64,000 nt of DNA from a bacterium. Lineage in GTDB: Bacteria; Elusimicrobiota; Elusimicrobia; Elusimicrobiales; UBA9959. Of this stretch, positions 2,937 to 43,408 are shown piece by piece. Under the pieces are notes generated by a model. That model made no database searches, had not been told where the DNA came from, and was given only the letters and a program-made list of their open reading frames with translations. How positions within the stretch are numbered: position 1 is the stretch's first letter; each line of letters starts with the position of its first letter. The stretch covers positions 486 through 64,485 of the forward strand of contig JAJYJH010000011.1 of assembly GCA_021789695.1 (NCBI GenBank), written 5' to 3'. The position numbers and the translations under genes were made by a program.

Positions 2937-4046
2937 CTAATCGAAGTCTATCTCGTACAGGTACGGCACGTGTTTTTTCTCCAGCGTAACGAAGATCTTT
3001 TTTCCGCCGGCCGCTGCGAAGCCGGGCTGCTCCCTGCCGCCGTAACAGTAATCCTCCTTTGCGCAGGCCAGCAGCCTGGACGGGCCGCTCCAGGGACCCC
3101 ACGGGTAAGGCGCCAGACGGGCCGTGAGCGAACCTGTTCCGCGGTCAGAATACACGGCCAGATAGGCGCCGAGGGCCTGGTTATACGAAACGGAAAACTC
3201 CTCAGGCATATCCGGGATCACGTCGGAGGCCTCGGACACGTCCGAAGTCCACGGCACGCTGCCGGCGTCGGCGCTGTAGTAGGAATAATCCGCGCGCGAA
3301 GCCAGCTTGTCCGGCCTGACGCGGGCCAGCTGGGCGGGGTACTCTCCGGGCGAGGTCTCCTCCCGGCCGTAGACGTAGAGCCAGCCGTCCTCGTCGAAAA
3401 ACGCCGCGGAGCCGAAGGCGGGCTCGATGTCGTTCCAGAAGGCGTAGCCGTCCCCAAATGGCGCCTTGACGTAGGGACCGGCGGGACGCTCGGAACAGGC
3501 CACCCCCTGCCCGACACGGAAGTAATCATAAGGATCCGGACCGAAGTTGTTCATTATGGAATAGAACGCGCAGCAACGGCCGCCGGAGCAGAACCCGGAA
3601 CTGGGCCAGAATTTGCGCGCCTGGCTGTATTCCTTAAGGTCCCCGGAAAGCAGCGGCAGCGGCCAGCCGTTCTCGTCGGAGACGAAGGCAAGGCGCCCGG
3701 CCTGGGAATACGGCGAAGTGCTGGGGGCCAGCGCTGCCGCCCCGTCTATTATACCCCAGACCTCCGGCTGACCGTCGGGTCTTTTCCTGCCTGTCCAGAC
3801 GTTGTTGAGCAGCCAGAGGGTGCGCCCGTCCGGCAGCGGGATGGAGAAATTCCCGCCCTGCGCCACCGGCGCCGTAGTGGAGGCCGGGGACGAGAGCAGG
3901 GCGGTCCCGGAAGAAACGGAGAACGCCGGCAGGGCAGGGTCCTGCGCGCGGACCGCGGCCGGCAGCAGCAGACAGGCCAGCAGGAAGGACAGACGGCCTC
4001 CGGGCCGGCCGCCAAGTTCCAGCGTTGCATTCTTATGGGACCGCAT
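2937..4046 (-). CDS. Secreted hypothetical protein (possibly a glycoside-hydrolase-like beta-propeller, DUF4185-like)
   Basis: Signal-peptide-like N-terminus (RLSFLLACLLLPAAVRAQD). The composition is coding-like, unlike the opposite-strand ORF. ATG at 4044-4046 is preferred over the track's TTG at 4073. The family assignment is only an impression. Confidence 0.6.
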   Translation of the reverse strand: MRSHKNATLELGGRPGGRLSFLLACLLLPAAVRAQDPALPAFSVSSGTALLSSPASTTAPVAQGGNFSIPLPDGRTLWLLNNVWTGRKRPDGQPEVWGIIDGAAALAPSTSPYSQAGRLAFVSDENGWPLPLLSGDLKEYSQARKFWPSSGFCSGGRCCAFYSIMNNFGPDPYDYFRVGQGVACSERPAGPYVKAPFGDGYAFWNDIEPAFGSAAFFDEDGWLYVYGREETSPGEYPAQLARVRPDKLASRADYSYYSADAGSVPWTSDVSEASDVIPDMPEEFSVSYNQALGAYLAVYSDRGTGSLTARLAPYPWGPWSGPSRLLACAKEDYCYGGREQPGFAAAGGKKIFVTLEKKHVPYLYEIDFD

Positions 4047-4059
4047 TATGGCATCTCCG

Positions 4060-4087
4060 CTGACTGGATTCAAAATTATAATATAAT
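4060..4087 (+). promoter_or_regulatory. Candidate sigma70-type promoter for the FN3 surface-protein gene
   Basis: CTGACT (4060-4065), a 16-nt spacer, then TATAAT (4082-4087), inside an AT-rich divergent intergenic region. This is a sequence match only. Confidence 0.3.
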
Positions 4088-4172
4088 AGAAACCATGATG
4101 CGCGCAAACGCGCTGCCCCCCTGTAACATATTAGTCATTAAGGTTGGAAGGCGCTCTGCTAGACTATTACCG

Positions 4173-7100
4173 ATGCTCCCGCGGCGACGAACCATCTTCA
4201 CGCTAATAACTGCGGCGCTGCTGCTGGCCTGCGGCGCCATGCCTTCTCAGGCCGCGCTCTCCCCTTACACTTCCGCCTCTGGACTGAGTTCTCTTTCGTT
4301 CATTTGGGGCGCCGCAGGCTCACCATACGTGGTGGCGCTTTCGACCGACCCGCTGTTCCTGGTGCAGACCGCCACCGGGGCCCTCTCCGCCAACACCACC
4401 TCCTATACCGGCCTCAGCCAGGACACGCTCTACTATTTCCGCGTCAAAAGCCAGTCGGCCCCGGACTCGGCCTACGAAACGGCCTCCACCGCCACCTGGG
4501 TGGCCGCTCCTGCCGGCCTGTACTCAGTGCCGTCCTATTTCACTTCGGATTCGTCCTTCACGGCCACGGCGCGGCTGGGCTGGGATACCGGCGGGAATCC
4601 GGTGTGGACGGCCTACGAGATGCAGTACGCCTTAAATTCGTCCTTTTCCCCCTCTGCCACGGCCATGCCCGGTTACCCGCCCGCCACCCTTGGCGGACTG
4701 AACGCCAACACCACCTACTATTTCAAGGTACGGGCGGTGGGCGTCTCGGGAGTGGTCACGCCGTACGCTCCGTACATCTCCACCGCCACCATGGCCCTGG
4801 CTCTTCCAGGGGTCTCGGAGAAGGTGCACGAGACCAGCGCCACCATCTCCTGGACCCCGGTCTACGACGCGACGGTACAGGCCCTCACCTCGGAAGGCTA
4901 CAAGGTCCTACTGCAGAGCGATCCCACCCTTACCTCCCCGTCCGTCTGGGTCACGGCTTCGCCGACGGCTTCTTCAGCCGACTTCACCGGACTCGCCCGC
5001 AACACCGGGTACTGGTACAAGGCCGGAGCCCTGAACTGGACCGGCGCGCCGAACATGTCGGATATCCGCTATTTCGTCACCCTCGCGGCTGTACCGCAGG
5101 GGCTCGCCAGATCTTCGGTAACAGCCGGCGCGGCCAGCCTGACCTGGACTCCGCTCGGGCCCGGGGAGACGTACGGTTACAGGCTCGAGGCCTCCGCGGA
5201 CCCCGCCTGGTCTTACGGCGCCATTCAGTCGTCTTCCGCTTACGACGCGTCGGTTAGCACCCTTACAATAGACACGCTGGACTCTAATACCACCTACTAT
5301 TTCCGGGCCGCCTCGTTGAACACCGCCGGCGCTCCCGACTATACCGCCAGCCTTTCCTCCGTCACGCTGGCCCTGGCGATCCCGGGGGATGTCGCCTGGT
5401 CCAATGCCCAGCCCCAGGCGATAACGGTGGAGTTCATTCCGCTGCCGCAGACGCTGCAGTCGCTCTCGTGCGAAGGCTACCGCTTGGAAGCCTCAACGGC
5501 TCCGTTCGGTTCCGGCGGCGCAGTGATCTCCTCCGCCACCTACGACGTCTACCCGACCGGGTTCACGCGCCAACTGACGGCGCAAGGCCTGGCTCCCAAT
5601 AACACGTACTATCTGCGCCTCGGCACCCTCAACTGGCAATATACCCCGGACTATACCGTGCTGCCCTCCACCCATACAGGCTTCCCCGGAAACCTGACCA
5701 ACGTCACGCTGGACGCGGTCTGGAGTTCCAGCGCCTCCGTCAGCTTCACCCCGGGCATAGCGGCAGAAGGCCACGTGGCCGAGGCCTCCGCCTCGCCTTA
5801 CTTCGATACGATATACGCCAGTTCCTACACTCCGAGCGGCACGGCCTCCAACCTGATAGTAAGCGGCCTGGACCCCAACACCACCTATTATTTCAGGGCC
5901 GGGGCGCTCTACAACGGAGCCACGGTCTACACGAACACCGTGCCCGACTACCGTCAGACCCTGCCGCAGCCGCTTACCGCCCTGTCGTTCGCCGGTGTTT
6001 ACCAGTCCAGCGTAACCGTCTCCTGGGCGCCCTTGGCCGGCACCTCGCAGATCTCCTCGGCTGAATCCTACATACTTCAGGGCGCTGTTTCCCCGGCCTT
6101 CTCCCCGGTGCTGTTCTCCTCCTCCACCGCAGACATCTCGCGCGACAGGCTTACGATAAGCGGCCTCTCTCCGGACACCAGCTATTATTTCAGGGCGGGC
6201 ACGGTCAACATGGAAGGTTCCGTCAATTACTCCCTCACCCCGGACACCTCTACGATGGCCAACCAGCCCGCCGCGCAATCCTATACAGCCATAACCCCGG
6301 ATTCGCTCACGCTGACCTGGGGGTCCCACGGCAACCCGGCCGATACCAGGTACATGGTGGAGATGTCCTCCTACCCGGACTACAGCTACGCCAGGCCGGC
6401 GCAGACCGTGGCGCTGACCACAGCCGCCTTCTCCGGCCTGTTGCCGAACACGACCTACTATTCGCGCGCGACGGCCATAAACAGGCTGGGACGCGCTACG
6501 CCGGCGCTGGACTTCTCCCCTATGGCCACCGGGGCCTTCGACCCCGGAGTGTTGCCGTTCTCCGGCGTAGGGGTCTCGAGCCTGACGGTCAACTGGTCCT
6601 CCGGGGCGGCCGCGGGCTTCTTCAACAATCCGGGCACCTTCTACCTGGTGTCCATCTCCTCAGAACAGGCCTTCTCCGGCACCGTCCTCTCCTCCACGAC
6701 GCTCGGTCTCTCCGCCACCTTCTACGGCCTGCTCTCCGACACAAGCTACTACCTGCACGTATCGGCGCTTAACCTGACCGGAGTGCCAACGGACCCGCCG
6801 GCGCAGCTCGGCACCGCGCTGACCCTGCCCGCTACTGCGTACCTGTTGCCGCCCGACGCCACCTTCCCGCCCGCCCAGATGATGATAGACGGTTTCACGG
6901 CGGCCTGGGGCCCTAACGGCAACTCCCCGGACACGCGCTATTACGTGGAGGCCTCTACTGTGAACGCGGGCGCAGGCCCTGACTTCAGCGTTATAGCCTC
7001 CTCCTGCCTGGCGCAGGGGCTCGCCTGCACCCTGACCGGTCTGCAGATAGACACGCAGTACTGGCTGCGCGTGCAGGCCATCGGGCAGACCGGCGCGCTG

Positions 7101-7844
7101 GCGGATTTCGTGCAGCTTGGCTCCACCAGGACGCTACTCTCAGCCACGGGCAGCGCGCCCGCCCTGCAGGATACAGTGGTCACGCTCGACGCCTCCTACG
7201 GCCAAATCTCCGTGCATATCCCTCCCGGGGCCCTTGGCGGGGCCACAAGGCTGACGCTCTCCCCGTCCACCACCACGCTGGCCGGACCGGCCTCCGCGGT
7301 GTCGGCCCTAACGCCTACCGGCATAGGCGTCACCATCAACTACTTCCCTCCCGCCCTCGTACTGGGGGCCATAACTATAACCGTACCGTACCGTCTCTCC
7401 GACCTGCCCGCCAATATAGACCCGGCGCGGCTGGTGCTCGCTTTCTACGACGAGACTGACCGGGTCTGGGTGCCGCTGCCCTCGGTTTCCAACGTGCCGG
7501 CGCGCCTGGTGACGGCCCAGACCTGGCACCTCTCCACCTTTCAGCTGATGCAGACCAATCCGACGGCGGGGCTGTCGGGGGTCAAGGTCTACCCGAACCC
7601 ATACCGCCCCAACTCCGTAACCGGCGTGATGCACTTCGCGGACCTGCCGCCCTACTCCGAGGTCAAGATTTACACTTTCCTGGGGGAGCTTGTAAGGAAG
7701 CTGAAGGCCGATATCGACGGTATGGCGCAATGGGACGGGCTCAACAGGGACGGGCGCGAGGCCGCCAGCGGAGTGTACATAGCCTACGTACAAAGCCCCG
7801 ACAAAAAGAGCAGCAGGAGCCTGAAGGTGGCCGTGGAAAGATGA
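4173..7844 (+). CDS. Large cell-surface protein: signal peptide, about 10 fibronectin type III repeats, an Ig-like region, and a T9SS-type (Por secretion tail / FlgD-Ig-like) C-terminal domain
   Basis: An in-frame ATG at 4173 gives MLPRRRTIFTLITAALLLACGAMPSQA, a signal peptide. A GL.(P/S)(N/D)T.YYFR motif recurs 10 times at intervals of about 85-100 aa. The last 87 aa (7581-7841), VKVYPNPYRPNS...GVYIAYVQS...LKVAVER, look like a T9SS CTD. Confidence 0.85.
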   Translation: MLPRRRTIFTLITAALLLACGAMPSQAALSPYTSASGLSSLSFIWGAAGSPYVVALSTDPLFLVQTATGALSANTTSYTGLSQDTLYYFRVKSQSAPDSAYETASTATWVAAPAGLYSVPSYFTSDSSFTATARLGWDTGGNPVWTAYEMQYALNSSFSPSATAMPGYPPATLGGLNANTTYYFKVRAVGVSGVVTPYAPYISTATMALALPGVSEKVHETSATISWTPVYDATVQALTSEGYKVLLQSDPTLTSPSVWVTASPTASSADFTGLARNTGYWYKAGALNWTGAPNMSDIRYFVTLAAVPQGLARSSVTAGAASLTWTPLGPGETYGYRLEASADPAWSYGAIQSSSAYDASVSTLTIDTLDSNTTYYFRAASLNTAGAPDYTASLSSVTLALAIPGDVAWSNAQPQAITVEFIPLPQTLQSLSCEGYRLEASTAPFGSGGAVISSATYDVYPTGFTRQLTAQGLAPNNTYYLRLGTLNWQYTPDYTVLPSTHTGFPGNLTNVTLDAVWSSSASVSFTPGIAAEGHVAEASASPYFDTIYASSYTPSGTASNLIVSGLDPNTTYYFRAGALYNGATVYTNTVPDYRQTLPQPLTALSFAGVYQSSVTVSWAPLAGTSQISSAESYILQGAVSPAFSPVLFSSSTADISRDRLTISGLSPDTSYYFRAGTVNMEGSVNYSLTPDTSTMANQPAAQSYTAITPDSLTLTWGSHGNPADTRYMVEMSSYPDYSYARPAQTVALTTAAFSGLLPNTTYYSRATAINRLGRATPALDFSPMATGAFDPGVLPFSGVGVSSLTVNWSSGAAAGFFNNPGTFYLVSISSEQAFSGTVLSSTTLGLSATFYGLLSDTSYYLHVSALNLTGVPTDPPAQLGTALTLPATAYLLPPDATFPPAQMMIDGFTAAWGPNGNSPDTRYYVEASTVNAGAGPDFSVIASSCLAQGLACTLTGLQIDTQYWLRVQAIGQTGALADFVQLGSTRTLLSATGSAPALQDTVVTLDASYGQISVHIPPGALGGATRLTLSPSTTTLAGPASAVSALTPTGIGVTINYFPPALVLGAITITVPYRLSDLPANIDPARLVLAFYDETDRVWVPLPSVSNVPARLVTAQTWHLSTFQLMQTNPTAGLSGVKVYPNPYRPNSVTGVMHFADLPPYSEVKIYTFLGELVRKLKADIDGMAQWDGLNRDGREAASGVYIAYVQSPDKKSSRSLKVAVER

Positions 7845-7860
7845 GGATGGCGCGGACTTT

Positions 7861-8844
7861 ATGAGGAAAGCGGCGTTGAAATGCCTGAGAAACGCGGCAG
7901 GAGCGGCACTGTTGCTCTGCGCCCCGACCCTGGTTCTTTCTGCGTCGGCCGCCGGTTACGATTCCTCTTCCGTCGGTACGGCCGCCGCCCAGTTCCTGAA
8001 GATAGCCATGGGCGCGCGCGGCGCAGCCATGGGAGAGGCCTACGCCGCCCTCGCCGACGACGCCTTCGCGCTGGACTGGAACCCCGCCGGCCTGATCCAT
8101 GTAAAAAAGAACTCCATGGCCATGATGCACTCCCCCTACCTGGCCGGTTCCTACGCGGATTATCTGGCCTACGCCGAGAACGCGGGCGAGGTCGGGTCCT
8201 GGGGAGTAGCTTTGAAATACATGAACTACGGCAAGATCACGCAGACCGACGCCAGCGGCGTGGACTTGGGAAGTTTCTCCCCTTCCGACACCGAGATCAG
8301 CGTGGGCTTCGCCTGTTACATAACGGGCTTCAACGAGGAGCCAGAGGACCGTTTCGTATTGGGCGCCACCGGCAAGTTCGTCAAATCCAAGATAATTTCC
8401 GGCGACAACACGGTCTCCGCCGACATAGGGCTAAACCTGCCGTACATGTTCGACAACAACTTCCGCGTCAGCCTGGTGGCCCAGAACATCATGGGCACGC
8501 TGCGCTACGACAAGGAGGATTCTCCGCTGCCGCTGATACTACGCCTGGGCACGCTCACGAAGCTGGGGAACTACTTCAACCTCACCGGCGACATAGTGGC
8601 GCCCAGCGATTCGCTGCCCTTCCTGGCGATGGGAGGAGAGCTCAGCGTGCCGGTGAACCGCGATATAGACGCGGCGCTGCGCGCGGGTTTTAACACGCGT
8701 GCCATAACCGACCTGGGCGGGACCCGCAACGTCTCAATGGGCGGCGGCCTGCGCTATACCGATTACAGGCTGGACTACTCCTTCTCCCCGTTCGGGGACC
8801 TTGGCTCCGTCCACCGCATCTCGGCCACTATCGTTTTCGAATAA
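7861..8844 (+). CDS. PorV/PorQ-family outer-membrane beta-barrel protein
   Basis: Signal peptide, then GTAAAQFLKIAMGARGAAMGEAYAALADDAFALDWNPAGL, which matches my recollection of the PorV/PorQ family N-terminal signature. The remainder has alternating beta-strand character and ends in an aromatic-rich C-terminus (ISATIVFE). Confidence 0.7.
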   Translation: MRKAALKCLRNAAGAALLLCAPTLVLSASAAGYDSSSVGTAAAQFLKIAMGARGAAMGEAYAALADDAFALDWNPAGLIHVKKNSMAMMHSPYLAGSYADYLAYAENAGEVGSWGVALKYMNYGKITQTDASGVDLGSFSPSDTEISVGFACYITGFNEEPEDRFVLGATGKFVKSKIISGDNTVSADIGLNLPYMFDNNFRVSLVAQNIMGTLRYDKEDSPLPLILRLGTLTKLGNYFNLTGDIVAPSDSLPFLAMGGELSVPVNRDIDAALRAGFNTRAITDLGGTRNVSMGGGLRYTDYRLDYSFSPFGDLGSVHRISATIVFE

Positions 8845-8854
8845 TCCAGGTAAG

Positions 8855-10120
8855 TCAGGCCCGGGTCTCTCCTACCCGGGAAGAGCCGCGCGCCGCCGTC
8901 ATCGGGAAGGCCGCCCCCATCCAGCCCAGAGCGAACAGGAAGGCCGTGCCTGGATAGGCGGCGGCCGGCATCGCGCCGGCGGTCCTGGCCAGCGAGACCA
9001 GCGCGGCGGTCAGCCCCTTGGAGAAGCGATAGGTGAAGGCTTCAGCCACCTGCTTTGCGCGGTAGCGGGTGTCGTAGGAGAACGGGATGTACAGCGTCTC
9101 CTTGCTGGCCCTGAAGAGCGAATAATCCAACCCCTTGAACAACAGGAAAGCCAGCGCCGCCATGAAAAGCCGCGGAGACAGCAGCAGGGCGCCAAGCGTG
9201 AGCAGGTGCGCCGCCGGGATGGCCGTCTGGATGCGCCGTATGGAGACGTAGCGCAACAACAGCGGCGTCAGCAGGAACTGCATCGTGAACGAGAATATAT
9301 TCACCTTCATCCAGAACCCGCCGAAGAAGGCGGTGCGCTGGTCCAGCCCCGGGAAAGCGGCCTGCGCCAGCTGCGCGAAGCGCAGTTCCAGCATCGTGGC
9401 CACGACCTGCGTGGCAAAGACGACCAGCGCTATACAAAGTATGGTCCTGTTCTCTTTCAGGATGCTCAGATGCAGATGCCCCTTCCTGCCGTGCGCCTCT
9501 TCGGACGATGGCTTCGGCTCTCCGGCCCTGGCGTAGGCCAGCCAGAAGAGCGCCAGGGCCGGCAGCATCGCCAGGCCAGACATCAGCACGAAGAAATCCG
9601 TATGCAGTAAAACGGCGAAGCGCTCCACCAGCCAGCCGGCTGTCAAAGGACCTATGGCCCCGACGCCGGCCACCGGGCCGTTATAGGCCTTGCCCTCTTC
9701 CTCCCGCAGCGTGCTGTTGATGAACGACCAGTACTGCTCGGCTATAACCACGACGTAGGATTCCTTGAAAACGTAAAGGAGAAAGATCAGCGGCCCCCCC
9801 CCGCCGGCCTTCAGGCCCAGGAAGGCGAGCACGAAGAACGCGGAGCTGGCCAGCATAGAGGCGGCCATCGCTTTTTTGCCGCCTACGGCCGAGAGCAGCC
9901 TGCCGTAGAGGTAAATCAGGAGCGCCATCATGAACGGTACGCAACTCATCGCGTACGGTTTGGCGTCGGCGCCGAAACGGCCTATGAAGATGGACTCCGC
10001 GCTGGAGCGGATGAACTCGTAGCCGCCGAACAGGAAGCCGGCCGAAAGGCCGGCGAACAGCATGGCCAGCGCTACGCGGCGCCCGCGCTCCGTTCTCAGC
10101 GATCCAAGGAATGCTTTCAT
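8855..10120 (-). CDS. Polytopic transporter, MFS-like with resemblance to the TLC/Npt ATP:ADP-antiporter family
   Basis: The 421-aa product has about 12 hydrophobic segments. YVFKESYVVVIAEQYWSFINS resembles the TLC-family motif. The substrate is unknown. Confidence 0.5.
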   Translation of the reverse strand: MKAFLGSLRTERGRRVALAMLFAGLSAGFLFGGYEFIRSSAESIFIGRFGADAKPYAMSCVPFMMALLIYLYGRLLSAVGGKKAMAASMLASSAFFVLAFLGLKAGGGGPLIFLLYVFKESYVVVIAEQYWSFINSTLREEEGKAYNGPVAGVGAIGPLTAGWLVERFAVLLHTDFFVLMSGLAMLPALALFWLAYARAGEPKPSSEEAHGRKGHLHLSILKENRTILCIALVVFATQVVATMLELRFAQLAQAAFPGLDQRTAFFGGFWMKVNIFSFTMQFLLTPLLLRYVSIRRIQTAIPAAHLLTLGALLLSPRLFMAALAFLLFKGLDYSLFRASKETLYIPFSYDTRYRAKQVAEAFTYRFSKGLTAALVSLARTAGAMPAAAYPGTAFLFALGWMGAAFPMTAARGSSRVGETRA

Positions 10121-12345: not shown

Positions 12346-14988
12346 TCAGCCAGCGATCCGTTTGTCTATCACCCGTCGTATCTTGCCGGTGCGCTGCACA
12401 CGCTCTATGGAATTGGGAGCGAGCACCTCTATCTCCGGCTTCTCCAGCCATTTCAGCCGCACGCTCTCGTGCAGGTCTTCGCAGTGCTTCACCAACTCGC
12501 GCCAGAGCAGGTCGCCCAGCTCCCCGGCGCGGGCCAGCGCGGCCTGATCGGCCGTCTCAGCGCGTATGACCAGCGTGTCCCGGTGGCCTTTTTTGCCTAT
12601 GACCACTTGGAAATTGAAGGTCAGGTCAGGCACCTTGCCCAGCGCCTCCTGGATATCGTTGACAAAGAGGTGCGCGCCGCCGACGTGGATGCGGTCGTCG
12701 CAGCGGCCGAGGATCTCTAAAAGCGGCTCCTTGCGGCCGCAGGCGCACGGCTTGTTTATCCAGCGCCCGAGGTCGCCTACGCGGTAGCGGATGATAGGCA
12801 TCAACTTCTTAGAAAGCCCGGTCACGACCAGTTCGCCTATCTCGCCCTTCTTGACCGGCTCCAGCGTGTCCTGGTTCACGAACTCTACGTACTGGCTCAT
12901 CGCGAACAGGTGGTGCTGGCCCTTAACGCAGTGCGGGCACTGGAAGCCCACCACGCCGGCGTCGGCGGTGGCGTAGGCGGCCGAGCGCACCTTCGCGCCG
13001 GGGAAAACGCCTTCAAAGAAGCGCACCATCTCGGTCCCGACGTACTCGCCGCCGTAGAAGATAGTGCGCAGCGGTATCCTGTACTTCCCTTTACCGGCCT
13101 TCACGAACTCGGCCAGCTTCACAAGGAACGATGGCAGGCCGACCACGGCCGTCGTCTGGAAGTCCTGCAGGTAACCGGCGATGTTCTCCACCGGCAGGTT
13201 GCTGCCTACCGGCACCGAGATGGCCTTGGTATAGGAAATGGCTTTTTCTACGGACAGCCAGCTGGACCAGAGGTTGCCGGCCACGAACAGGTTGGCTATA
13301 ACGTCCTTCTCGCCCAGGCCGCAGGCCTCCATGGAGTATGCGAGCATCCGGCAGGTATGGTCGTACTCCTTCTGATCGTAGAAGACGTACTTCGGCTGGC
13401 CGGTGGAGCCGCCGCTGGCGAAGAAGATACCGCGCTGCACCGGGCCGGTCAGCAGGTCCGGGCTGTCAGGCGGGGTGTTCTCCAGCACATGGTGCTTCTC
13501 AAGGAACGGCACGTGCTGGAAGTCCTCCAGCGAAACTATACGGGGCACGTCCTTGAAGTGCCGCTTGTAGAACGGGCTCCTGGAGCGGGCGTAGTCCACC
13601 AGCTCGCTCAGGCGGTCGAGTTGAGAGGGCTTCTCCTCTATGGGCACCCAGTTCACCAGGGACATCATCGGGAAGATGCCGTCGTGCGGCGAGCCGTTGG
13701 CCTCCTCCAGCATCCTGCCCAGCCGCACCACGCGGGCTATGCCGGCGGGCCCGAGCGTTTCCAGCACCTTCCTGCGCTCTATCGAACCGCCTACGCCTAC
13801 GGTCTGGATATAGCCGCGCAGCGGCAGCAGCTGGTCGCGCACCTGTTCCAGAGTCTCTACCGTCTTGACGTAGAGCACGCGGTTCAGGGGTGAGACCCTG
13901 TACGCCGGGTCTTTCTCGTATATGACGGTCCAGGCGGTGGAAGGGGCAGAGCTGGCGTACGACGCGTTCCCCAGGGCCTGGTCCACCCGGGCCAGCTCCC
14001 TGGCCCGGGTTATCTCCACCTGCTCGTCGGGCGAAAGCCGGCCGGGCGGCAACTCCACGGCTAGCCGGGCGAACTCTTTCTTCGCGCGGCCGAGAAAAGA
14101 AGCGGCCAGCTCCGCGTGGCGCTTCGCCGGCGCGACGAAGTAAAGCGTGTGCAGCGAGGAGCAGGCGGCCTGGTCCCACAGCGAGGCGTCCAGCGCCGCG
14201 CGCGCCGCCACATTGTCCATGCCTTCGTGGTCCACGCAGCTTTCGAAGACCACTCCCACGCTGGTCTTCGGGCCGAAACCCTCTACGCGCACGTCTATGG
14301 GCGCGGCCTGCCGGTAGGCCTGCACGGCGTCGTAGCCGCCCCAGACGAACACGGCGTTGACGTACTTCAGCGCGGCCTCCTCGAGCCCTTGGCTGCCGCC
14401 CTTCCAGGAGAGTACGGCCGCTGAACCGGCCAGCAGGCCTTTCGCGTCGGCCTCCTTCAGCGCCTCCATGAACAGGTTGATGAAGTTGGAACCGGAGGAG
14501 GACAGCTTTACGACGTTGACGTTCTTGGTCAGAAAGCCTATGACCATGGAGTCGAGGATGCCGAGGAAGACGTTGCCGGCACCCACGTGCAGCACTACGC
14601 CCTTCGGCATCGCGCGCAAGAGCCCCTCGTAGCCGCGCCTCTCCACGGAGGTCTCCAGCGCGTAAGGCAGGAAGAGTTCCATATTCAGGCGCTTGCTCAA
14701 CGCCTGCCTGTCGAGCAGCTCCGGGATGACCTCGAGGGTGCGGTCTATGACCTCGGGGGAGAAGGAGATCTGTCCCTTCAGGGCCGAGAGGGCGGCCTTG
14801 CGGTACTTCGCGCCTTTTTCGAACAGCTTGCCGGCCCGGGCCAGGGTGTCCACGATGTATTCCCGCGGGGTCCCGCGCAACGGCCCGCAGGCCGCCTGCG
14901 CCCTACGTCCTATCTCCTCTATCTCTGCCGGGGTCCAGGAGGACCTGTCGAGCGCTTCTCCGAAAAGGTAGGTGTTGTGTATCTTCAT
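12346..14988 (-). CDS. Fusion protein: LuxC-like acyl-CoA/acyl-protein reductase (N-terminal half) plus a PaaK/F390-synthetase-like adenylate-forming enzyme (C-terminal half)
   Basis: The N-half carries LHVGAGNVFLGILDSMVIG and WDQAACSS (Cys codon 14161-14163), as in the LuxC/aldehyde-dehydrogenase fold. The C-half carries FFASGGSTGQPKYVFY, an adenylation P-loop, and has PaaK-like length. I place the start at ATG 14986-14988, which forms an ATGA overlap with the upstream stop. The track start at 15015 is a TTG. Confidence 0.75.
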   Translation of the reverse strand: MKIHNTYLFGEALDRSSWTPAEIEEIGRRAQAACGPLRGTPREYIVDTLARAGKLFEKGAKYRKAALSALKGQISFSPEVIDRTLEVIPELLDRQALSKRLNMELFLPYALETSVERRGYEGLLRAMPKGVVLHVGAGNVFLGILDSMVIGFLTKNVNVVKLSSSGSNFINLFMEALKEADAKGLLAGSAAVLSWKGGSQGLEEAALKYVNAVFVWGGYDAVQAYRQAAPIDVRVEGFGPKTSVGVVFESCVDHEGMDNVAARAALDASLWDQAACSSLHTLYFVAPAKRHAELAASFLGRAKKEFARLAVELPPGRLSPDEQVEITRARELARVDQALGNASYASSAPSTAWTVIYEKDPAYRVSPLNRVLYVKTVETLEQVRDQLLPLRGYIQTVGVGGSIERRKVLETLGPAGIARVVRLGRMLEEANGSPHDGIFPMMSLVNWVPIEEKPSQLDRLSELVDYARSRSPFYKRHFKDVPRIVSLEDFQHVPFLEKHHVLENTPPDSPDLLTGPVQRGIFFASGGSTGQPKYVFYDQKEYDHTCRMLAYSMEACGLGEKDVIANLFVAGNLWSSWLSVEKAISYTKAISVPVGSNLPVENIAGYLQDFQTTAVVGLPSFLVKLAEFVKAGKGKYRIPLRTIFYGGEYVGTEMVRFFEGVFPGAKVRSAAYATADAGVVGFQCPHCVKGQHHLFAMSQYVEFVNQDTLEPVKKGEIGELVVTGLSKKLMPIIRYRVGDLGRWINKPCACGRKEPLLEILGRCDDRIHVGGAHLFVNDIQEALGKVPDLTFNFQVVIGKKGHRDTLVIRAETADQAALARAGELGDLLWRELVKHCEDLHESVRLKWLEKPEIEVLAPNSIERVQRTGKIRRVIDKRIAG

Positions 14989-16199
14989 AGCATCGTCGAG
15001 GCCGAGATGGCGCAACCCTTTAGCTTCTTCACTCCGGCCCGGCCTTTTATCTCCAGCACAGGCCCTGGCAGGCCGCAGGAGCAGCGCGCCCGTACCAGCC
15101 CGAAGTCCGAAGACAGGACCGACAGCGAGGGGTAACTGGTCAGGTACGGCGTTAGGAACTGCAGCAGGCCCGGCTTTCCGTAACCAAGCGGCTCGAGAGT
15201 GCCCGGATCCCGCGCTATCACGCGCCCGTAGTTAGGAATATGGAAGTTCCCCAACCGGCAGTCCACATAAGGCACTCCGTGCTCCACCATACCGAACAGG
15301 TCCCGCACGTTGGCGACCGGGACGCCGAGACTGTCGGCGAGTATTCCGCGGTAGACCTTCTTGTCCACCGCCTCGTCGGAGAGCGTCTTCCAGCCCCCGC
15401 CGGTCACCACGCTGCTGCCCGGGTTCAGACGCGGGTAACGCCCGTAGCGTTTCTTAAACTCCTCCGTCAGCTTTAGCGCGAAGGCGGGGAAGCCCACCAG
15501 CCTGACCAGACTCCCCGCCTCTTCGGACTTCTTCAGCGCCAGCACCGCGCCGTCGATGTCGAAGTAGAAGTCGTTCTTCTCCCGGCTCCAGCGGAAGGTG
15601 TAGAAGATCTCCCCCTTCTTCGTGAAGCCGGTCAGCAGCTTGTCGGTCCAGGCGGTGCCCAGGTCCCTGGCCACCGCGGGGTCGTAAGTGAAGCAGATGT
15701 AGTCGTGGGCCCGCTGCAGGTCCGTCAGGCCCAGGCCCTCGAAGACCTTCCAAGCCATCCGGCGCACGCGCAACAGCGAGCCCCTGTCCAGTTGTATACG
15801 GCTGCGCTGGCCGGAGGTGCCGCTCGACTTGAGTTCCAGCATTATCCGGGAGGCAGGCAGCGTGTACAGGTCACGCTCCTTCAGCGCGGCGACGAAGATG
15901 AACGGAACGCGGGCCACATCGGCCTCCGCCCTGACCGAGGCCGGCGAAAAACTTTCGGTCCCGTAGAGGGCTTTGAGCACCGGCGCGCGCCGGCCCTGGA
16001 AGTCCAGCGCGGCGCGCATCGCGGCCAGGAAGGCCCGCGAGGTGCGGGGAGAGTATTCGAAAGCGGGCGTCTCGAAGAGCGCGTCCAGCGCGGCGCGGCT
16101 CCCGAGCGGTTTGTAGAAAGGCGGGAGGCGGTCCTCCACTGACAGGTCTGCCACAGGTTGTCTCCTTATGACCAGATGAACGGGGGTCCCGGGCCTCAC
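14985..16199 (-). CDS. LuxE-like acyl-protein synthetase (adenylate-forming)
   Basis: The 404-aa product has an LKSSGTSGQRSRI P-loop and LuxE-like length and layout. The GTG start overlaps the upstream GNAT stop (GTGA at 16196-16199). Confidence 0.7.
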   Translation of the reverse strand: MRPGTPVHLVIRRQPVADLSVEDRLPPFYKPLGSRAALDALFETPAFEYSPRTSRAFLAAMRAALDFQGRRAPVLKALYGTESFSPASVRAEADVARVPFIFVAALKERDLYTLPASRIMLELKSSGTSGQRSRIQLDRGSLLRVRRMAWKVFEGLGLTDLQRAHDYICFTYDPAVARDLGTAWTDKLLTGFTKKGEIFYTFRWSREKNDFYFDIDGAVLALKKSEEAGSLVRLVGFPAFALKLTEEFKKRYGRYPRLNPGSSVVTGGGWKTLSDEAVDKKVYRGILADSLGVPVANVRDLFGMVEHGVPYVDCRLGNFHIPNYGRVIARDPGTLEPLGYGKPGLLQFLTPYLTSYPSLSVLSSDFGLVRARCSCGLPGPVLEIKGRAGVKKLKGCAISASTML

Positions 16200-17413
16200 T
16201 GGGACCGGGGTCCCTCCTGTTTGGCTTCCGTTTGGAAGACCGACTCAATGTAGTTCTCGCGCCAGAGCTTCAGGTATTCGTTAAGGAAATTCTTGTAGAG
16301 CGAGATGATCTTGACGTTGCGGAAGTCCAGCATGTCGAACGTGCGCGAGAACACCACGCAATCGTAGCGCGCCTCCCCCATGCGCTTGGCGCAGGGAAAA
16401 TAAGCGCTCGGAATGTAGCGGGCGTCCAGCGCCTCGCGCTGCAGCTCCGGGGAATAGGCCTCTATGACGACCTCGACGTAGGCCATATTCATGTCGCTGA
16501 CCTTTCGCGCCACGCTCTCCAGCACGACGGCGAAGCTCTTTTCGTTAGTCACGCCCCCGATTATCGCGCTATAGCGGTCCTTGAGGCTGACCGTCAGGTA
16601 GACCTCGGTGCCCTGGTCCGGGGTGATCAGGATCAGGTTGGGCTCATGGAACGGCATCACGATGTGCTCGAAGAAACTGTTGTGTTTCGTCCGCATGTAG
16701 CGGGCCTTGACGAACTCAGGGGCGTCTATCACTTCGAAGTTTAGCAGCGGGATCTTCTTACGGTGGTCGCTATAAGGCCCATTCGCGTCCCTGACCTGCG
16801 GGTCCTCCAATTTAATCTGGCGCCTGACTATTTCGTAGAAGGGGACTATCTCCGGTATGATGACCGGCGTGGCGCGCCGCTGCTGCATGGCGCGCTCGGT
16901 GAAATAGGCGGTCAGGCAGTGCGTCTCGTTGTCCTGCACTTTGTGGGTGTTGGGAAAGATACCGAGCTTAACGAAACCCAGACTCTCGGTCAGCTTCTGC
17001 GGGGCGTAATTGGCGGTGCGAGTGGTGGCGTAGACCAGGTCCACCAGGTTCTTGCCCGACGTGATGTCGTCCAGCACCAGCTTCATCATCGTCTGGGCCA
17101 GGTCCATTTTGCGGAACTCCTGGCTGACCACGGCGCCGAAAGCCTTGGAATTGCGGTACTGCAGGTCCACCTCGTACACCAGGCTACCGACGATGCGTTC
17201 AGCGCACTCCGCGACCATCCAGTAGTAGTCGTCGTCCTCTATCGCGCGGCGCATCTTCTCCCTGTCCATGATTATGGAGATGGGATAGGCCGCGCCGTAG
17301 ACCTCGGCGTAAAGCATCTGTATGCGCCGCATGTCCTGTGTCCTGGCAAGCCGGATGATGACGTCCGGCTTGCCCTCGGTCCTTATCACGTGCTCTATCT
17401 TGTTGTGAGTCAT
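16196..17413 (-). CDS. GNAT-family N-acyltransferase with an additional C-terminal domain of about 230 aa
   Basis: The N-terminal ~170 aa have a GNAT-like layout (IRLARTQDMRRIQMLYAEVYG ... GAVVSQEFRKMDLAQTMM ... ESLGFVKLGIF). The C-terminal half is unassigned and may be a second GNAT-like fold. Confidence 0.65.
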   Translation of the reverse strand: MTHNKIEHVIRTEGKPDVIIRLARTQDMRRIQMLYAEVYGAAYPISIIMDREKMRRAIEDDDYYWMVAECAERIVGSLVYEVDLQYRNSKAFGAVVSQEFRKMDLAQTMMKLVLDDITSGKNLVDLVYATTRTANYAPQKLTESLGFVKLGIFPNTHKVQDNETHCLTAYFTERAMQQRRATPVIIPEIVPFYEIVRRQIKLEDPQVRDANGPYSDHRKKIPLLNFEVIDAPEFVKARYMRTKHNSFFEHIVMPFHEPNLILITPDQGTEVYLTVSLKDRYSAIIGGVTNEKSFAVVLESVARKVSDMNMAYVEVVIEAYSPELQREALDARYIPSAYFPCAKRMGEARYDCVVFSRTFDMLDFRNVKIISLYKNFLNEYLKLWRENYIESVFQTEAKQEGPRSQ

Positions 17414-22000: not shown

Positions 22001-22484
22001 ATTTTAATACGGGAAAGGAGTAAAGATAAATCCCATCGGAGTTGTAGACCTCGACGCGGGAATTGCCGGTGTCGGAGACGTAAACGCTGTCGTCGGGCCC
22101 GTAGGCTATACCCTCCGGGGATTTGAGCTGCCCCGGCTCGCTCCCTTTCCCGGAGAAGGTCCATAGCGGCTTGCCGGAGGCGTCGAATACCGCAACGCGC
22201 GAGTTGCCGGTGTCGGCGACGTAGAGCTTTCCGCTCCCGAAAGCCAGCGCGGAAGGGGAATCGAGTCCGCTGGAAATCTTCCCGACCTGCCGGCCCGCCG
22301 CGTCGAACTCGAAGACGGCGTTGGCCTTGGAATCGGCCACGAAGAAGGTGCCGCTGGCGACAGCCACCGCCGACGGCTTCTGGAAGGCCGGGCTCTGCAC
22401 CATGTTTCTGAACTCTATCTTCTCGTACGCCTGGGAAAAGGCGGCCATGCCCATCAAAGCGGCCGAAAGGATAACGCGTTTCAT
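19014..22484 (-). CDS. Giant exported protein: multiple NHL repeats, one FN3 domain, a transglutaminase-like cysteine-protease-fold domain, and C-terminal TPR repeats
   Basis: ATG at 22482-22484 follows a GGAGG RBS and gives the signal peptide MKRVILSAALMGMAAFSQA. YVADTGN.RV..F-type NHL motifs recur about 12 times. An FN3 motif is present (PGTTYYYYVAALS). SGDCDDLAALFASVFEASGL ... PSHIALMF supplies a Cys/His pair as in the transglutaminase core (Cys codon 19800-19802). The last ~130 aa are TPR-like. Confidence 0.8.
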   Translation of the reverse strand: MKRVILSAALMGMAAFSQAYEKIEFRNMVQSPAFQKPSAVAVASGTFFVADSKANAVFEFDAAGRQVGKISSGLDSPSALAFGSGKLYVADTGNSRVAVFDASGKPLWTFSGKGSEPGQLKSPEGIAYGPDDSVYVSDTGNSRVEVYNSDGIYLYSFPVLKSDGVTRLEPAKISLSRSGDVLVSDPGRGLLQRYDRTGKLLKEYDLPNDGAAFNKYGYVYAIDSREGKVIELSETGENRGTFGTRGRGKAEFLDLRDIAIGGDGTLYLCDAGNKKVVTITVVTAYKGPRLPEAAPLARFLVKGPEAEVAADASAFSVAPGGGIAAWLDKARELDLFDGAAKKTLAKEGRLQGQLRSPGGLFVGPKGDIYVADTGNDRVEIFKPDGSYENMFGESGSGEGEFRSPSAVAVNSLGNIYVADTGNRRVKAFSHDGMFLFAMSQQLGGAVLDRPVSVVCDEDGNVYILDEGLKKVIVTDAMGKFIGLWDGSGSLQDPVSLAYDGKGFFYVLDKGTSSVKIFDRGGKLVASFFARGRGGRELWDPAQLAFSGDRLYISDPGAQRVAVFDVGYLPRQPSALSAKVGEESVGLSWKGESNAWTDGFKVFRAAGEGGKIAEIGPSREPSFEDRSLVPGTTYYYYVAALSASGGQGELSVPAEVYYKGNETPVPAAAAPPADNKNAPPMEIVPAHLDYIFSANYKYYQKNPVGVVTVKNNTGTDFSNVKLSFNFKDFMDFPSDTVVPLVKARSSVDVPLLATLNNRILGITENTPIQCQLRLTYYQDGEEKTFTLTQPVTVLSKNAIVWDDASRLGNFITVNDGPITAFRTFALLQKKDLANDSGSLNDNLLTALLDWEALGEYGLTYMSDPVSPFEVLKSSAAVPLDTVQFPRNTLTLKSGDCDDLAALFASVFEASGLHTALLDYPSHIALMFDTGETDADRVGIPAEYLIKRDNTWWVGLETTMVGKSFYDAIMHEADLYRKMKDEVRVIDVRKAMTEFEPVTLPEESSPMKFSMPGLPDRVRKAIDALAALRYAHLKEYYGSILRSAPGDVEANMSLGIAHAQYKHYDEAEACFKKVLEKEPFNAAALNDLGNLSFEAGRYDEAREYYFKASKADPFDGNIWLNLARVAAKQGNKDDVRAFAARAAKIDPGLQTLADKLSK

Positions 22485-22644
22485 TTTAATGCCTCCCCTT
22501 AACCGACGCTGCTCAGGAACGGCAAAAAAAGGCCGCAACAAACCGGACGCCATTCCCCCGGCTATTCTATTATATTTCGCCGCCGCTTTTGCAACCGGGG
22601 AAACGGTATTAACCGGGCTTATAACCGGCATTAGCAGTTCGTTA

Positions 22645-42962: not shown

Positions 42963-43408
42963 TTGCGTGCGGTGACGATCAACGCGGACCCGGCCAGAAC
43001 ACGACCGAAAGAAACCGCCCGAAGCGCCTGCGCCAGCCAATAGTATAGAACTTTAAGGCCGCCGGTTAGAACTCCCCCCAATCGGCCGCCGCTGCGGTAG
43101 GGGTCCCCGGCCGTGGGCGGGGAGTTGCGAAGCCTTATCTCCCTGAACCCCGCTTTTTCAAGCATGACACGCAGGCTGCCAGGCCCAGCCAGCGCGGACC
43201 CGATATAGTCCAGGGCCGAGGCGAAAAGGACCGCCTTGGCGGAAACGCAGACGGCGTCCCACTGCTCCCCGCTATACTCCGGTCCTCCGAAATATTTCCC
43301 GGCCCTGAAGACCAGGCCGCAGGCCCGGCATTTCCGCAGGCCCGGCAGCCAGCCGTAGACGGACGAACCGCAGACCGGGCAGGGCTCAGCGCCGCCGGAG
43401 GACTTCAT
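42959..43408 (-). CDS. Zinc-ribbon protein resembling a methyltransferase that has lost its Rossmann core (possible remnant)
   Basis: CPVCGSS...CRACGLVF zinc ribbon and a later LEKAGFREI segment, as in Zn-ribbon class I methyltransferases. I see no SAM-binding GxGxG segment between them. The start (43408) overlaps the end of the upstream gene by 23 nt. Confidence 0.4.
   Translation of the reverse strand: MKSSGGAEPCPVCGSSVYGWLPGLRKCRACGLVFRAGKYFGGPEYSGEQWDAVCVSAKAVLFASALDYIGSALAGPGSLRVMLEKAGFREIRLRNSPPTAGDPYRSGGRLGGVLTGGLKVLYYWLAQALRAVSFGRVLAGSALIVTARK

What the first reader, a model, noticed from the sequence alone, without database searches (positions are those of the whole stretch)
4173..8844. 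FN3-array surface protein with a T9SS-type C-terminal domain placed directly upstream of a PorV/PorQ-like barrel
Seen in the sequence: the 1223-aa protein ends in an 87-aa segment (7581-7841: VKVYPNPYRPNS...GVYIAYVQS...LKVAVER) that looks like a Por-secretion-tail / FlgD-Ig-like sorting domain. The next gene, 17 nt downstream, encodes a barrel protein with the PorV/PorQ-like N-terminal signature. Established knowledge: in Bacteroidota, PorV binds the CTD of T9SS cargo and shuttles it from the translocon to the attachment complex. Inference: a dedicated cargo and shuttle pair encoded together suggests a minimal or lineage-specific CTD-dependent surface-display route. No other T9SS component (SprA/Sov, PorK/L/M/N, PorU/Z) is in this 64-kb window, and the rest of the gene content does not look typically Bacteroidota-like.
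Basis: partly seen in the sequence, partly recalled or inferred. Interest (0 to 1): 0.62.

Follow-up and report, generated by a model that had tools for sequence, protein, structure and literature searches.

The report
Self-cleaving surface protein, private PorV barrel
An uncultured Elusimicrobiota bacterium from mine drainage encodes a long fibronectin-repeat surface protein next to its own PorV-like outer-membrane barrel, in a phylum where the published literature I could search does not place type IX secretion, and the protein also carries a probable self-cleaving joint just before its type-IX-style tail.

Summary
Window 4173-7844 encodes a 1223-aa protein: signal peptide, ten FN3 modules, and an 87-aa C-terminal domain (CTD). 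The CTD's closest solved relative is the retained CTD of PorZ (5M11, E 8e-13). Sixteen bases downstream, 7861-8844 encodes a 327-aa barrel. It passes the NCBIfam PorV/PorQ family model (165 bits, cutoff 90), and its model best matches PorV (8GL6/6H3I), ahead of FadL.

The organism is an Elusimicrobiota MAG. The pair is kept in all 10 orthologous loci fetched. Across 80 loci, 67 of 85 PorV-like genes have a CTD-ending gene directly upstream.

It carries a conserved H1119-L1120-S1121 motif of the kind shown to self-cleave in other bacteria. About 70% of CTD cargoes in the non-FCB loci have this module, and none in the FCB loci do.

Best reading: the barrel is a private anchor or carrier that holds an uncleaved CTD, as PorQ holds PorZ. 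The passenger is probably attached only through the self-cleaved joint and is releasable.

I rate this a new variant of a known kind.

The parts
4060..4087 (+). Sigma-70-like promoter match (CTGACT-16-TATAAT) upstream of the cargo gene
   Evidence: 10 of 12 positions. This is a consensus match only, not evidence of function.
4173..7844 (+). Cargo gene, 1223 aa: signal peptide, 10 FN3 modules, MAIN/ZU5-like domain, CTD. Public annotation starts it at 4095.
4173..4253 (+). Sec signal peptide (residues 1-27, MLPRRRTIFTLITAALLLACGAMPSQA)
   Evidence: Read from the sequence. Relatives have the same n/h/AxA layout. No predictor was run.
4254..7127 (+). Array of ten FN3 modules (about residues 28-985)
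   Evidence: Pfam fn3 148 bits with 8 stretches passing. Ten GL..NT.YY.R motifs spaced about 95 aa apart. About 48% identity to aligned relatives over this part.
7155..7556 (+). ZU5/GAIN-like ('MAIN'-type) beta-sandwich domain (about residues 995-1128)
   Evidence: AF2 model with pLDDT 84. Foldseek hits: AnkG ZU5 6M3R_E at E 1.2e-4, BAI3 GAIN 4DLO_B at E 3e-3 (rmsd 4.7 over 151 columns), CARD8 ZU5 7JN7_B. Pfam does not recognise the domain.
7527..7535 (+). H1119-L1120-S1121, candidate autoproteolysis site (cut predicted between L1120 and S1121)
   Evidence: The sequence reads CACCTCTCC = HLS. H, L and S are 92-94% conserved among 98 aligned sequences, and F1123, Q1124 and M1126 are 95-100% conserved. 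The motif sits in the turn between model strands 123-128 and 133-139. This motif class was shown to cleave in bioRxiv 10.64898/2026.05.12.724683.
7581..7841 (+). T9SS-type C-terminal domain (residues 1137-1223), ending in KVAVER
   Evidence: TIGR04183 26.8 bits against cutoff 23. Profile against PDB: PorZ CTD 5M11 residues 671-758 at E 7.8e-13. It is the most conserved part of the cargo, about 67% identity.
7861..8844 (+). PorV/PorQ-family outer-membrane barrel, 327 aa. Starts 16 nt after the cargo stop, with a GAGGA about 13 nt upstream.
   Evidence: NF033709 165 bits against cutoff 90. The only PDB sequence hit is PorV 6H3I_F at E 3.6e-10. AF2 pLDDT 71; Foldseek top hits are 8GL6_F and 6H3I_F, followed by FadL.
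7975..8100 (+). Conserved N-terminal PorV signature of the barrel (residues 39-80, with W73-N74-P75-A76)
   Evidence: Invariant columns in 39 orthologues. The segment aligns to the PorV N-terminus. Reading NPA as the FadL-hatch motif is my own knowledge; the FadL NPA mutants listed are consistent with it.

Best explanation
This is a two-gene surface-display unit.

1. The cargo is exported by Sec. It crosses the outer membrane by a route not identified here.
2. It is then held on the cell surface because its uncleaved C-terminal domain binds the PorV/PorQ-family barrel encoded next to it. This is how PorQ holds PorZ in Porphyromonas gingivalis.
3. Between the ten-FN3 passenger and the CTD lies a ZU5/GAIN-like (MAIN-type) domain. 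It most likely cuts itself between L1120 and S1121.
4. After that cut, the 1093-aa passenger would stay attached only non-covalently to a 103-aa stub made of the last beta-strand, a linker and the CTD. The passenger could then be shed, for example under force, with no PorU-type sortase needed.

**Shown here:** the domain identities, the gene pairing and its conservation, and the conserved HLS motif in the expected turn.
**Inferred:** CTD-barrel binding, retention of the CTD, the cleavage itself, and the translocation route.
For: **Barrel identity**
- NF033709 scores 165 bits against a cutoff of 90, and PorQ scores above PorV.
- The ortholog profile hits only PorV among PDB sequences.
- The model's best fold matches are PorV in the SprA complexes 8GL6 and 6H3I.

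**CTD identity**
- The profile matches the PorZ CTD to the last residue at E 7.8e-13. PorU's CTD scores 0.008 and FlgD 0.02.
- PorZ keeps its CTD and is anchored 1:1 by PorQ (PMC5562754).

**Pairing**
- In 10 of 10 orthologous loci, a 1160-1250-aa FN3 cargo sits directly upstream of the barrel.
- 67 of 85 PorV-like genes in 80 loci have a CTD-ending ORF directly upstream on the same strand. Four more have a MAIN-positive ORF with a divergent tail. The background is 83 of 1305 ORFs of 200 aa or more.
- CTD and barrel distances correlate across 68 pairs (r 0.85, 0 of 999 permutations reach it).

**Constraint**
- In the related loci the barrel is 52-77% identical and the cargo 34-58%.
- The CTD is the best-conserved part of the cargo.

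**MAIN joint**
- Fold matches to ZU5 and GAIN domains.
- HLS lies in the turn between the last two strands and is 92-94% conserved.
- The same module precedes the CTD in 45 of 64 non-FCB cargoes and 0 of 14 FCB cargoes.
- The published architecture for this domain class is signal peptide, adhesion domains, MAIN, then cell-surface anchor, and cleavage at HxS was shown experimentally.
Against: - There is no direct evidence that the CTD binds the barrel. A complex prediction could not be run.
- The barrel model is only moderately confident (pLDDT 71). Its conserved N-terminal 45 residues are unmodelled.
- Pfam's own CTD model (PF18962) and its ZU5 and GPS models do not reach threshold on this protein.
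- FadL transporters are the next-best structural match.
- No translocon was found in the window or the related loci, and the genome could not be searched. How a 1200-aa protein crosses the outer membrane is therefore unexplained.
- The Mantel correlation is expected for any two linked genes that share a history, so it does not prove contact.
Confidence: 0.5

Rival explanations
1. This is ordinary T9SS. The genome has a complete or near-complete type IX system (SprA, PorK-N/GldK-N, PorU, PorZ). This barrel is one more PorV/PorQ paralogue that shuttles cargo from SprA to a sortase, which removes the CTD.
For: - The CTD and barrel are true family members.
- Private CTD-cargo/PorV_fam pairs also occur in FCB lineages that have SprA, such as Rhodothermales, Caldithrix, Cytophagia and Ignavibacteria. 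One Calditrichia locus carries SprA beside two PorV-like genes.
- Earlier AI notes report a shortened SprA-like protein in Elusimicrobiota. I did not test that.
Against: - Reviews and primary papers confine T9SS to Bacteroidota or the FCB superphylum (PMC11205867, PMC12398890, PMC11611037). No paper in the library links it to Elusimicrobia.
- No T9SS part is in the 64-kb window. No SprA is in any Elusimicrobiota locus fetched.
- The in-cis self-cleaving joint is present in non-FCB cargoes and absent from FCB ones. That pattern fits a lineage that lacks the sortase step.
Confidence: 0.15
2. The barrel is the translocator. As in type V or two-partner secretion, the unfolded passenger is threaded through or beside the 14-strand barrel with help from BAM. 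The CTD acts as the targeting or plug element, and no SprA-like pore is needed.
For: - One barrel per cargo, co-transcribed, is the genetic logic of two-partner secretion.
- No other translocon was seen.
- The MAIN preprint itself draws the analogy to autotransporters with non-covalently retained passengers.
Against: - The barrel belongs to the FadL/PorV class with a conserved N-terminal hatch-like segment. It has no POTRA domain.
- No FadL-type barrel is known to export protein (my own knowledge).
- In solved complexes PorV binds CTDs at the SprA lateral gate and does not conduct them (descriptions of 6H3I and 8GL6).
Confidence: 0.1
3. The adjacency has no secretion meaning. The barrel is a FadL-like channel for hydrophobic compounds, and the C-terminal domain is a generic FlgD-type Ig domain.
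For: - FadL and TodX are strong structural matches.
- Pfam UPF0164 also matches the barrel.
- FlgD_ig matches 24 of 25 CTDs, always below the Pfam cutoff for this protein.
- A LuxC/LuxE fatty-acyl reductase cluster lies 3.5 kb away.
Against: - The pairing with CTD-ending genes in at least 79% of 85 barrels across many cargo types and phyla is far above background.
- PorV ranks ahead of FadL by fold, and it is the only PDB sequence hit.
- The CTD matches PorZ's ten orders of magnitude better than FlgD.
Confidence: 0.05

Closest known systems
PorZ-PorQ sub-complex of the Porphyromonas gingivalis T9SS attachment complex (PMC5562754; PorZ structure 5M11)
   Same: - A surface protein keeps its type-A-like CTD and is anchored 1:1 by a PorV-family barrel.
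- This CTD's closest solved relative is the PorZ CTD, matched end to end.
- This barrel scores higher on the PorQ model than on the PorV model.
   Different: - Neither protein reaches the equivalog cutoffs (PorQ 117 against 220; PorZ 54 against 260, CTD region only).
- The passenger is an FN3 array, not PorZ's beta-propellers.
- Here the two genes are adjacent and co-oriented.
- The organism is Elusimicrobiota.
- A self-cleaving-type domain precedes the CTD.
Type B CTD cargo with neighbouring PorP/SprF-like barrels (PMC9143113; SprB/SprF of Flavobacterium johnsoniae, from my own knowledge)
   Same: - One dedicated outer-membrane barrel is encoded beside each CTD cargo.
- That barrel is needed to anchor the cargo on the surface without A-LPS linkage.
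   Different: - The barrel family here is PorV/PorQ (FadL-like, 14 strands), not PorP/SprF.
- The CTD here is type-A/FlgD-Ig-like, although the type-B model CHU_C gives weak sub-threshold hits.
PorV of the SprA-PorV translocon complexes (6H3I, 8GL6)
   Same: - Best structural match, and the only PDB sequence match, for the barrel.
- PorV binds cargo CTDs.
   Different: - PorV is a general shuttle for many cargoes, is larger (about 345-400 aa), and works with SprA and PorU.
- Here there is one barrel per cargo. Fold identity is 15-16%, and the NF033710 score of 88 is far below its cutoff of 250.
MAIN (microbial GAIN-like) autoproteolytic domains, e.g. B. subtilis YfkN (Brogan & Rudner, bioRxiv 10.64898/2026.05.12.724683); eukaryotic ZU5 (PIDD, FIIND) and GAIN/GPS
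   Same: - A beta-sandwich with an H-hydrophobic-S/T motif in the turn before the last strand.
- The same architecture: signal peptide, adhesion domains, MAIN, cell-surface anchor.
- FN3 partners are common in the published set.
   Different: - Published anchors are sortase motifs, cell-wall-binding domains and SLH domains, mostly in monoderms.
- A T9SS-type CTD with an outer-membrane barrel as the anchor is not discussed in the main text. Only a few ZU5-FlgD_ig or CHU_C rows appear in the supplementary tables.
- Pfam ZU5 and GPS do not detect this copy.

Membership tests
T9SS type A C-terminal sorting domain (TIGR04183 / PF18962) | The HMM score reaches the curated cutoff | tested here: inconclusive
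   - TIGR04183: 26.8 bits against cutoff 23 on the isolated domain, but 20.8 bits in the whole protein.
- PF18962: 16.7 bits against cutoff 27. 14 of 25 family CTDs match at E of 0.01 or better.
T9SS type A C-terminal sorting domain (TIGR04183 / PF18962) | The domain lies at the extreme C-terminus of a Sec-exported protein and has the Ig-like beta-sandwich fold of solved CTDs | tested here: met
   - The domain ends at the last residue, and the PorZ CTD alignment runs to both C-termini.
- AF2 gives seven beta-strand segments in model residues 149-232, and Foldseek's top hit is PorZ 5M11, with PorU 6ZA2 third.
- The signal peptide was read from the sequence.
T9SS type A C-terminal sorting domain (TIGR04183 / PF18962) | Secretion depends on a T9SS translocon (SprA/Sov) | not testable with these tools
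PorV/PorQ family (NF033709) | Full-length HMM match above the cutoff | tested here: met
   165.1 bits against cutoff 90, covering model positions 1-326 of 326. Pfam PF19572 PorV scores 43 bits against cutoff 27.
PorV/PorQ family (NF033709) | A 14-strand FadL-class barrel resembling solved PorV | tested here: met
   The AF2 model has pLDDT 71 and 16 strand segments, two of which I read as an external hairpin. Foldseek gives 8GL6_F at E 6e-10 and 6H3I_F at 3e-9, ahead of FadL. Model confidence is moderate.
PorV proper (NF033710) or PorQ proper (NF033711) | The equivalog cutoff is reached | tested here: not met
   PorV scores 87.9 against 250 and PorQ 116.9 against 220. I file it as a separate subfamily, not as PorV or PorQ.
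Canonical type IX secretion system | SprA/Sov, PorK/L/M/N (GldK-N), PorU, PorT, PorW and the rest are present in the same genome | not tested
None of these is in the 64-kb window. A SprA HMM finds nothing in the window or the Elusimicrobiota loci.
MAIN / ZU5 / GAIN autoproteolytic domains | H-x-S/T in the beta-turn before the last strand of a ZU5/GAIN-like beta-sandwich | tested here: met
   - H1119-L1120-S1121 lies between model strands 123-128 and 133-139.
- It is 92-94% conserved.
- Fold hits are AnkG ZU5 at E 1.2e-4, BAI3 GAIN at E 3e-3 and CARD8 ZU5.
MAIN / ZU5 / GAIN autoproteolytic domains | Sequence-model membership (Pfam ZU5 PF00791 or GPS) | tested here: not met
   The isolated domain gets no Pfam hit at E of 1 or better. 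There is an indirect link: my HMM of this domain hits the L058 cargo at 1459-1574, where Pfam finds ZU5 at 1441-1526.
MAIN / ZU5 / GAIN autoproteolytic domains | Actual self-cleavage, with the two fragments staying associated | not testable with these tools
   This needs expression of residues about 990-1223 with S1121A and H1119A controls.

The most novel reading that the evidence does not exclude
Elusimicrobiota and several other non-FCB candidate phyla may run a sortase-free, possibly motor-free version of CTD-dependent surface display.
- Every cargo has a private PorQ-like barrel that permanently holds its CTD.
- An in-cis MAIN/ZU5 autoprotease replaces PorU as the step that separates passenger from CTD.
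- The result is force-releasable surface proteins anchored in the outer membrane.
Probability: 0.3. Interest if true: 0.8.

Novelty: new variant of a known kind. Interest (0 to 1): 0.6.

Why it matters
**For type IX secretion.** The papers I found in the searchable library treat T9SS as a Bacteroidota or FCB speciality. This locus shows that its cargo tag and its PorV-type partner form a conserved, slowly evolving two-gene unit in Elusimicrobiota.
- The barrel is conserved about as well as some neighbouring genes.
- The same pairing recurs in Firestonebacteria, FCPU426, Poribacteria, Aerophobetes and others.
- This bears on the origin of T9SS and on what PorV-family barrels did before the full machine existed.

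**For self-cleaving MAIN domains.** The MAIN-type joint placed directly before the CTD links two fields. It gives diderm bacteria an outer-membrane-barrel counterpart of the sortase or SLH anchors described for MAIN proteins. It also offers a simple explanation for how cargo could leave its CTD without PorU.

Both ideas can be tested with a 230-residue construct and a two-gene co-expression.

Tried and rejected
**Own-genome survey.** The genome is GCA_027407085.1, contig DAHZHJ010000004.1. I did not walk the remaining 82 kb of that contig, because the chance of meeting a translocon there is small.

**Hunt for an Elusimicrobiota SprA-like gene**
- All ORFs of 1300 aa or more without a CTD in the 80 loci turned out to be surface proteins with LTD, Kelch, NHL or beta-propeller domains.
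- The single SprA_N hit (L072) is from Calditrichia, an FCB lineage.
- A SprA HMM built from 35 sequences found nothing else.
- E. coli LptF and LptG found no homologue in the loci. This was a test of the lead that SprA-like genes sit beside lptFG.

**Other attempts**
- The first, broad PorV alignment was too divergent for the locus scan.
- My guess that the FCB pairs are porU-porV was wrong. The upstream CTD proteins do not match the PorU sortase model, and their barrels are PorV_fam only.
- A riboswitch or other RNA upstream of the cargo: no Rfam match at E of 1 or better in 3800-9200. No intrinsic terminator was found.
- Expression data: only DNA runs from a mine-drainage metagenome hold the locus.
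- The cargo as a lipoprotein: the Cys lies inside the h-region, and relatives show AxA-type cleavage sites, so I rejected this.


Full report
**What is there**

Window 4173-7844 (+) encodes a 1223-aa protein. It consists of:
- a Sec-type signal peptide;
- ten FN3 modules (Pfam fn3 148 bits; ten GL..NT.YY.R motifs);
- a roughly 135-aa beta-sandwich domain at residues 995-1128;
- an 87-aa C-terminal domain (CTD) at residues 1137-1223 that ends the protein with KVAVER.

Public gene calls start the gene at 4095.

Sixteen bases after the stop, 7861-8844 (+) encodes a 327-aa protein with its own signal peptide.

The flanking genes point the other way and are unrelated:
- upstream and divergent: DUF4185, an acetate-kinase-like gene and a phosphotransacetylase-like gene;
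- downstream and convergent: a TLC-like transporter, then an M29 peptidase and LuxC/LuxE.

The pair is therefore a self-contained two-gene unit.

**Identity of the two proteins**

The barrel:
- It matches NCBIfam PorV_fam over its full length (165 bits, cutoff 90). It stays below the equivalog cutoffs for PorQ (117 against 220) and PorV (88 against 250).
- A profile of 39 orthologues hits only one sequence in the PDB, F. johnsoniae PorV (6H3I_F, E 3.6e-10).
- An AF2 model (pLDDT 71) gives a barrel I read as 14-stranded. Its best fold matches are PorV in the SprA complexes (8GL6_F at E 6e-10, 6H3I_F), followed by FadL and TodX.

The CTD:
- Taken alone, it passes TIGR04183 narrowly (26.8 against 23) and fails Pfam PF18962.
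- A profile of 25 related CTDs matches the CTD of PorZ (5M11, residues 671-758) from first to last residue at E 7.8e-13. PorU's CTD scores 0.008, FlgD 0.02 and an 8GLK chain named Endonuclease I 0.04.
- The tail is therefore not merely a generic FlgD/Ig domain. It is specifically PorZ-like.

**Organism and literature**

Named homologues of both proteins are from Elusimicrobia/Elusimicrobiales MAGs. The window matches GCA_027407085.1, contig DAHZHJ010000004.1. The DNA occurs in mine-drainage metagenomes.

NCBI already labels relatives of the barrel 'PorV/PorQ family protein' and relatives of the cargo 'fibronectin type III domain-containing protein'. No paper in the searchable library links Elusimicrobia to type IX secretion or PorV. 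Reviews restrict T9SS to Bacteroidota or the FCB superphylum (PMC11205867, PMC12398890, PMC11611037).

**Is the pairing more than chance?**

- One scan of species-representative genomes returned 80 loci. Most are Elusimicrobiota. Others are FCPU426, Firestonebacteria, Poribacteria, Aerophobetes, Caldithrix, Ignavibacteria, Rhodothermales and Bacteroidota.
- All ten orthologous loci (barrel 52-77% identical) keep a 1160-1250-aa FN3 cargo directly upstream.
- Across all loci, 67 of 85 PorV-like genes have an ORF ending in this CTD type immediately upstream on the same strand. Four more have a divergent tail behind the same pre-CTD domain. By comparison, 83 of 1305 ORFs of 200 aa or more carry the CTD at all.
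- Cargo passengers differ widely (Kelch, NHL, laminin-G, beta-helix, M6 protease, GH97). The conserved unit is therefore 'CTD plus barrel'.
- The barrel orthogroup is sharply delimited. In a 1.8-billion-protein library its members collapse into two 50%-identity representatives, then scores drop from 427 to 282 bits. The wider family is large, with 10,516 clusters at E of 1e-3 or better.
- In the related loci the barrel is 52-77% identical and the cargo 34-58%. The CTD is the best-conserved part of the cargo, at about 67% against about 48% for the FN3 array.
- CTD and barrel distances correlate across 68 pairs (r 0.85, 0 of 999 permutations reach it). This is expected for cassettes that duplicate together. 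It is compatible with contact between the two proteins but does not prove it.

The domain between the FN3 array and the CTD folds confidently (pLDDT 84). It resembles ZU5 and GAIN domains:
- AnkG ZU5 6M3R_E at E 1.2e-4;
- BAI3 GAIN 4DLO_B at E 3e-3, rmsd 4.7 over 151 columns;
- CARD8 ZU5.

Its last two strands are joined by a turn carrying T-W-H1119-L1120-S1121-T-F-Q-L-M-Q. H, L and S are 92-94% conserved, and F, Q and M are 95-100% conserved among 98 aligned sequences. Two relatives carry an insertion exactly in this turn.

H-hydrophobic-S/T at this position is the self-cleavage motif of GAIN, ZU5 and the bacterial 'MAIN' domains. Cleavage between the hydrophobic residue and Ser, and continued association of the two fragments, were shown for several bacterial proteins (bioRxiv 10.64898/2026.05.12.724683). 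Those proteins share one architecture: signal peptide, adhesion or enzyme domains, MAIN, then a cell-surface anchor. Here the 'anchor' position is occupied by the CTD.

The module is general. The motif lies within 60 residues before the CTD in 45 of 64 CTD proteins of the non-FCB loci, and in 0 of 14 in the FCB loci.

Pfam does not detect ZU5 or GPS in this copy. It does detect ZU5 in a related cargo that my HMM of the domain also hits.

The preprint's main text does not mention T9SS tails or outer-membrane barrels as anchors. Its supplementary tables contain a few ZU5-FlgD_ig or CHU_C rows.

**Most likely mechanism**

1. Sec export. Inferred from the signal peptide.
2. Passage across the outer membrane by an unidentified route.
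3. The CTD stays on the protein and docks onto its private PorQ-like barrel, which acts as anchor or carrier. Inferred from three things: the PorZ-like CTD paired with a PorQ-leaning barrel; PorZ being held by PorQ in P. gingivalis (PMC5562754); and the anchor position of the CTD relative to the MAIN domain.
4. The MAIN-type domain cuts between L1120 and S1121. This leaves a 1093-aa FN3 passenger held non-covalently on a 103-aa stub, from which it could be released by force. Inferred from the fold, the motif and the published behaviour of the domain class.

A consequence is that no PorU-type sortase is needed to part passenger and CTD. The absence of the joint from the FCB cargoes in my sample fits this.

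The FN3 array has no catalytic domain. I take it to be an adhesin or spacer. Its function is otherwise unknown.

**What is not settled**

Substitutes found no translocon:
- nothing in the window;
- nothing among the large ORFs of the 80 loci;
- nothing with a SprA HMM.

The one SprA found, in L072, belongs to a Calditrichia genome, which is FCB.

Earlier AI notes of this scan report a shortened SprA-like protein beside lptFG in Elusimicrobiota, and a second CTD-protease/PorV pair in this same genome. I could not verify either, and I use them only as leads.

Private CTD/PorV_fam pairs also exist in FCB genomes that own a T9SS, and there the upstream protein is not PorU. The pairing alone therefore does not show that the pathway is independent of SprA.

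**Verdict**

The pairing is real, conserved and specific, but 'anchor with a self-cleaving joint' fits better than 'shuttle', and 'minimal pathway' is untested.
- Relative to the literature, this is a new variant of known kinds: the T9SS CTD with a PorV-family barrel, and MAIN-anchored surface proteins.
- Within this scan, the same cassette and the general pattern have been flagged repeatedly. This locus is one instance of a phylum-wide feature, not a singular oddity.

Noticed in passing
window 4095-4172: Public annotations start the cargo gene at ATG 4095, giving 1249 aa. Aligned N-termini of relatives and the promoter-like site at 4060-4087 favour ATG 4173, so the deposited protein probably carries 26 spurious N-terminal residues.
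   Followed up: partly
window 2937-4073 (-): A DUF4185/DUF5005 protein is transcribed divergently from the cargo gene. It keeps this position in 9 of 10 orthologous loci (50-69% identity). I cannot tell whether it is functionally tied to the pair or only syntenic.
   Followed up: partly
window 12346-17413 (-): A LuxC-like acyl-CoA reductase fused to an AMP-binding domain (889 aa), followed by a LuxE-like acyl-protein synthetase and a GNAT protein. This is a fatty-aldehyde-type module in a non-luminous anaerobe lineage, and it is syntenic in relatives.
   Followed up: no
window 19014-22631 (-): A 1205-aa protein with NHL-repeat beta-propellers, one FN3 module and C-terminal TPR repeats. It has no CTD by my profile.
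   Followed up: no
window 41570-63875 (-): A long polysaccharide or O-antigen-type cluster: many GT2, GT4 and GT87 glycosyltransferases, WbqC, a Wzt-type ABC ATPase, a Wzy_C ligase-like gene and a GNVR/Wzz tyrosine-kinase-like protein. It includes an unusual 1015-aa fusion of asparagine synthase with a GT4 glycosyltransferase at 43386-46433.
   Followed up: no
L081 6523-11041, L069 6444-11047, L051 6534-10948: In Rhodothermales, Caldithrix and a Cytophagia-labelled MAG, an uncharacterised CTD protein of about 1100-1185 aa sits directly upstream of a PorV_fam barrel that is neither PorV nor PorQ by NCBIfam. The upstream protein is not PorU and has only a weak phage-tail-tube-like hit. This suggests a conserved, unnamed cargo/barrel pair inside FCB lineages.
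   Followed up: partly
L040 17228-20830, L070 17279-20833, L080 12948-16460, L020 4205-9997: Giant double-Kelch-propeller proteins recur in Elusimicrobiales. The complete copy in L020 (1930 aa) has FN3 modules, the HFS module and a CTD, with a private barrel downstream.
   Followed up: no
P0001 residues 1119-1126 compared with relatives: Two relatives carry a 17-20-residue insertion exactly between W(N)L and STFQ, and both have H replaced by N. These may be copies that lost self-cleavage.
   Followed up: no
window 7861-8844, barrel residues 209-225: The longest loop that I place on the outer face of the barrel (NIMGTLRYDKEDSPLPL) has 8 of 17 positions invariant in 39 orthologues. It is also the least confident part of the model (pLDDT below 50 at residues 213-218). 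It is a candidate partner-binding surface.
   Followed up: no
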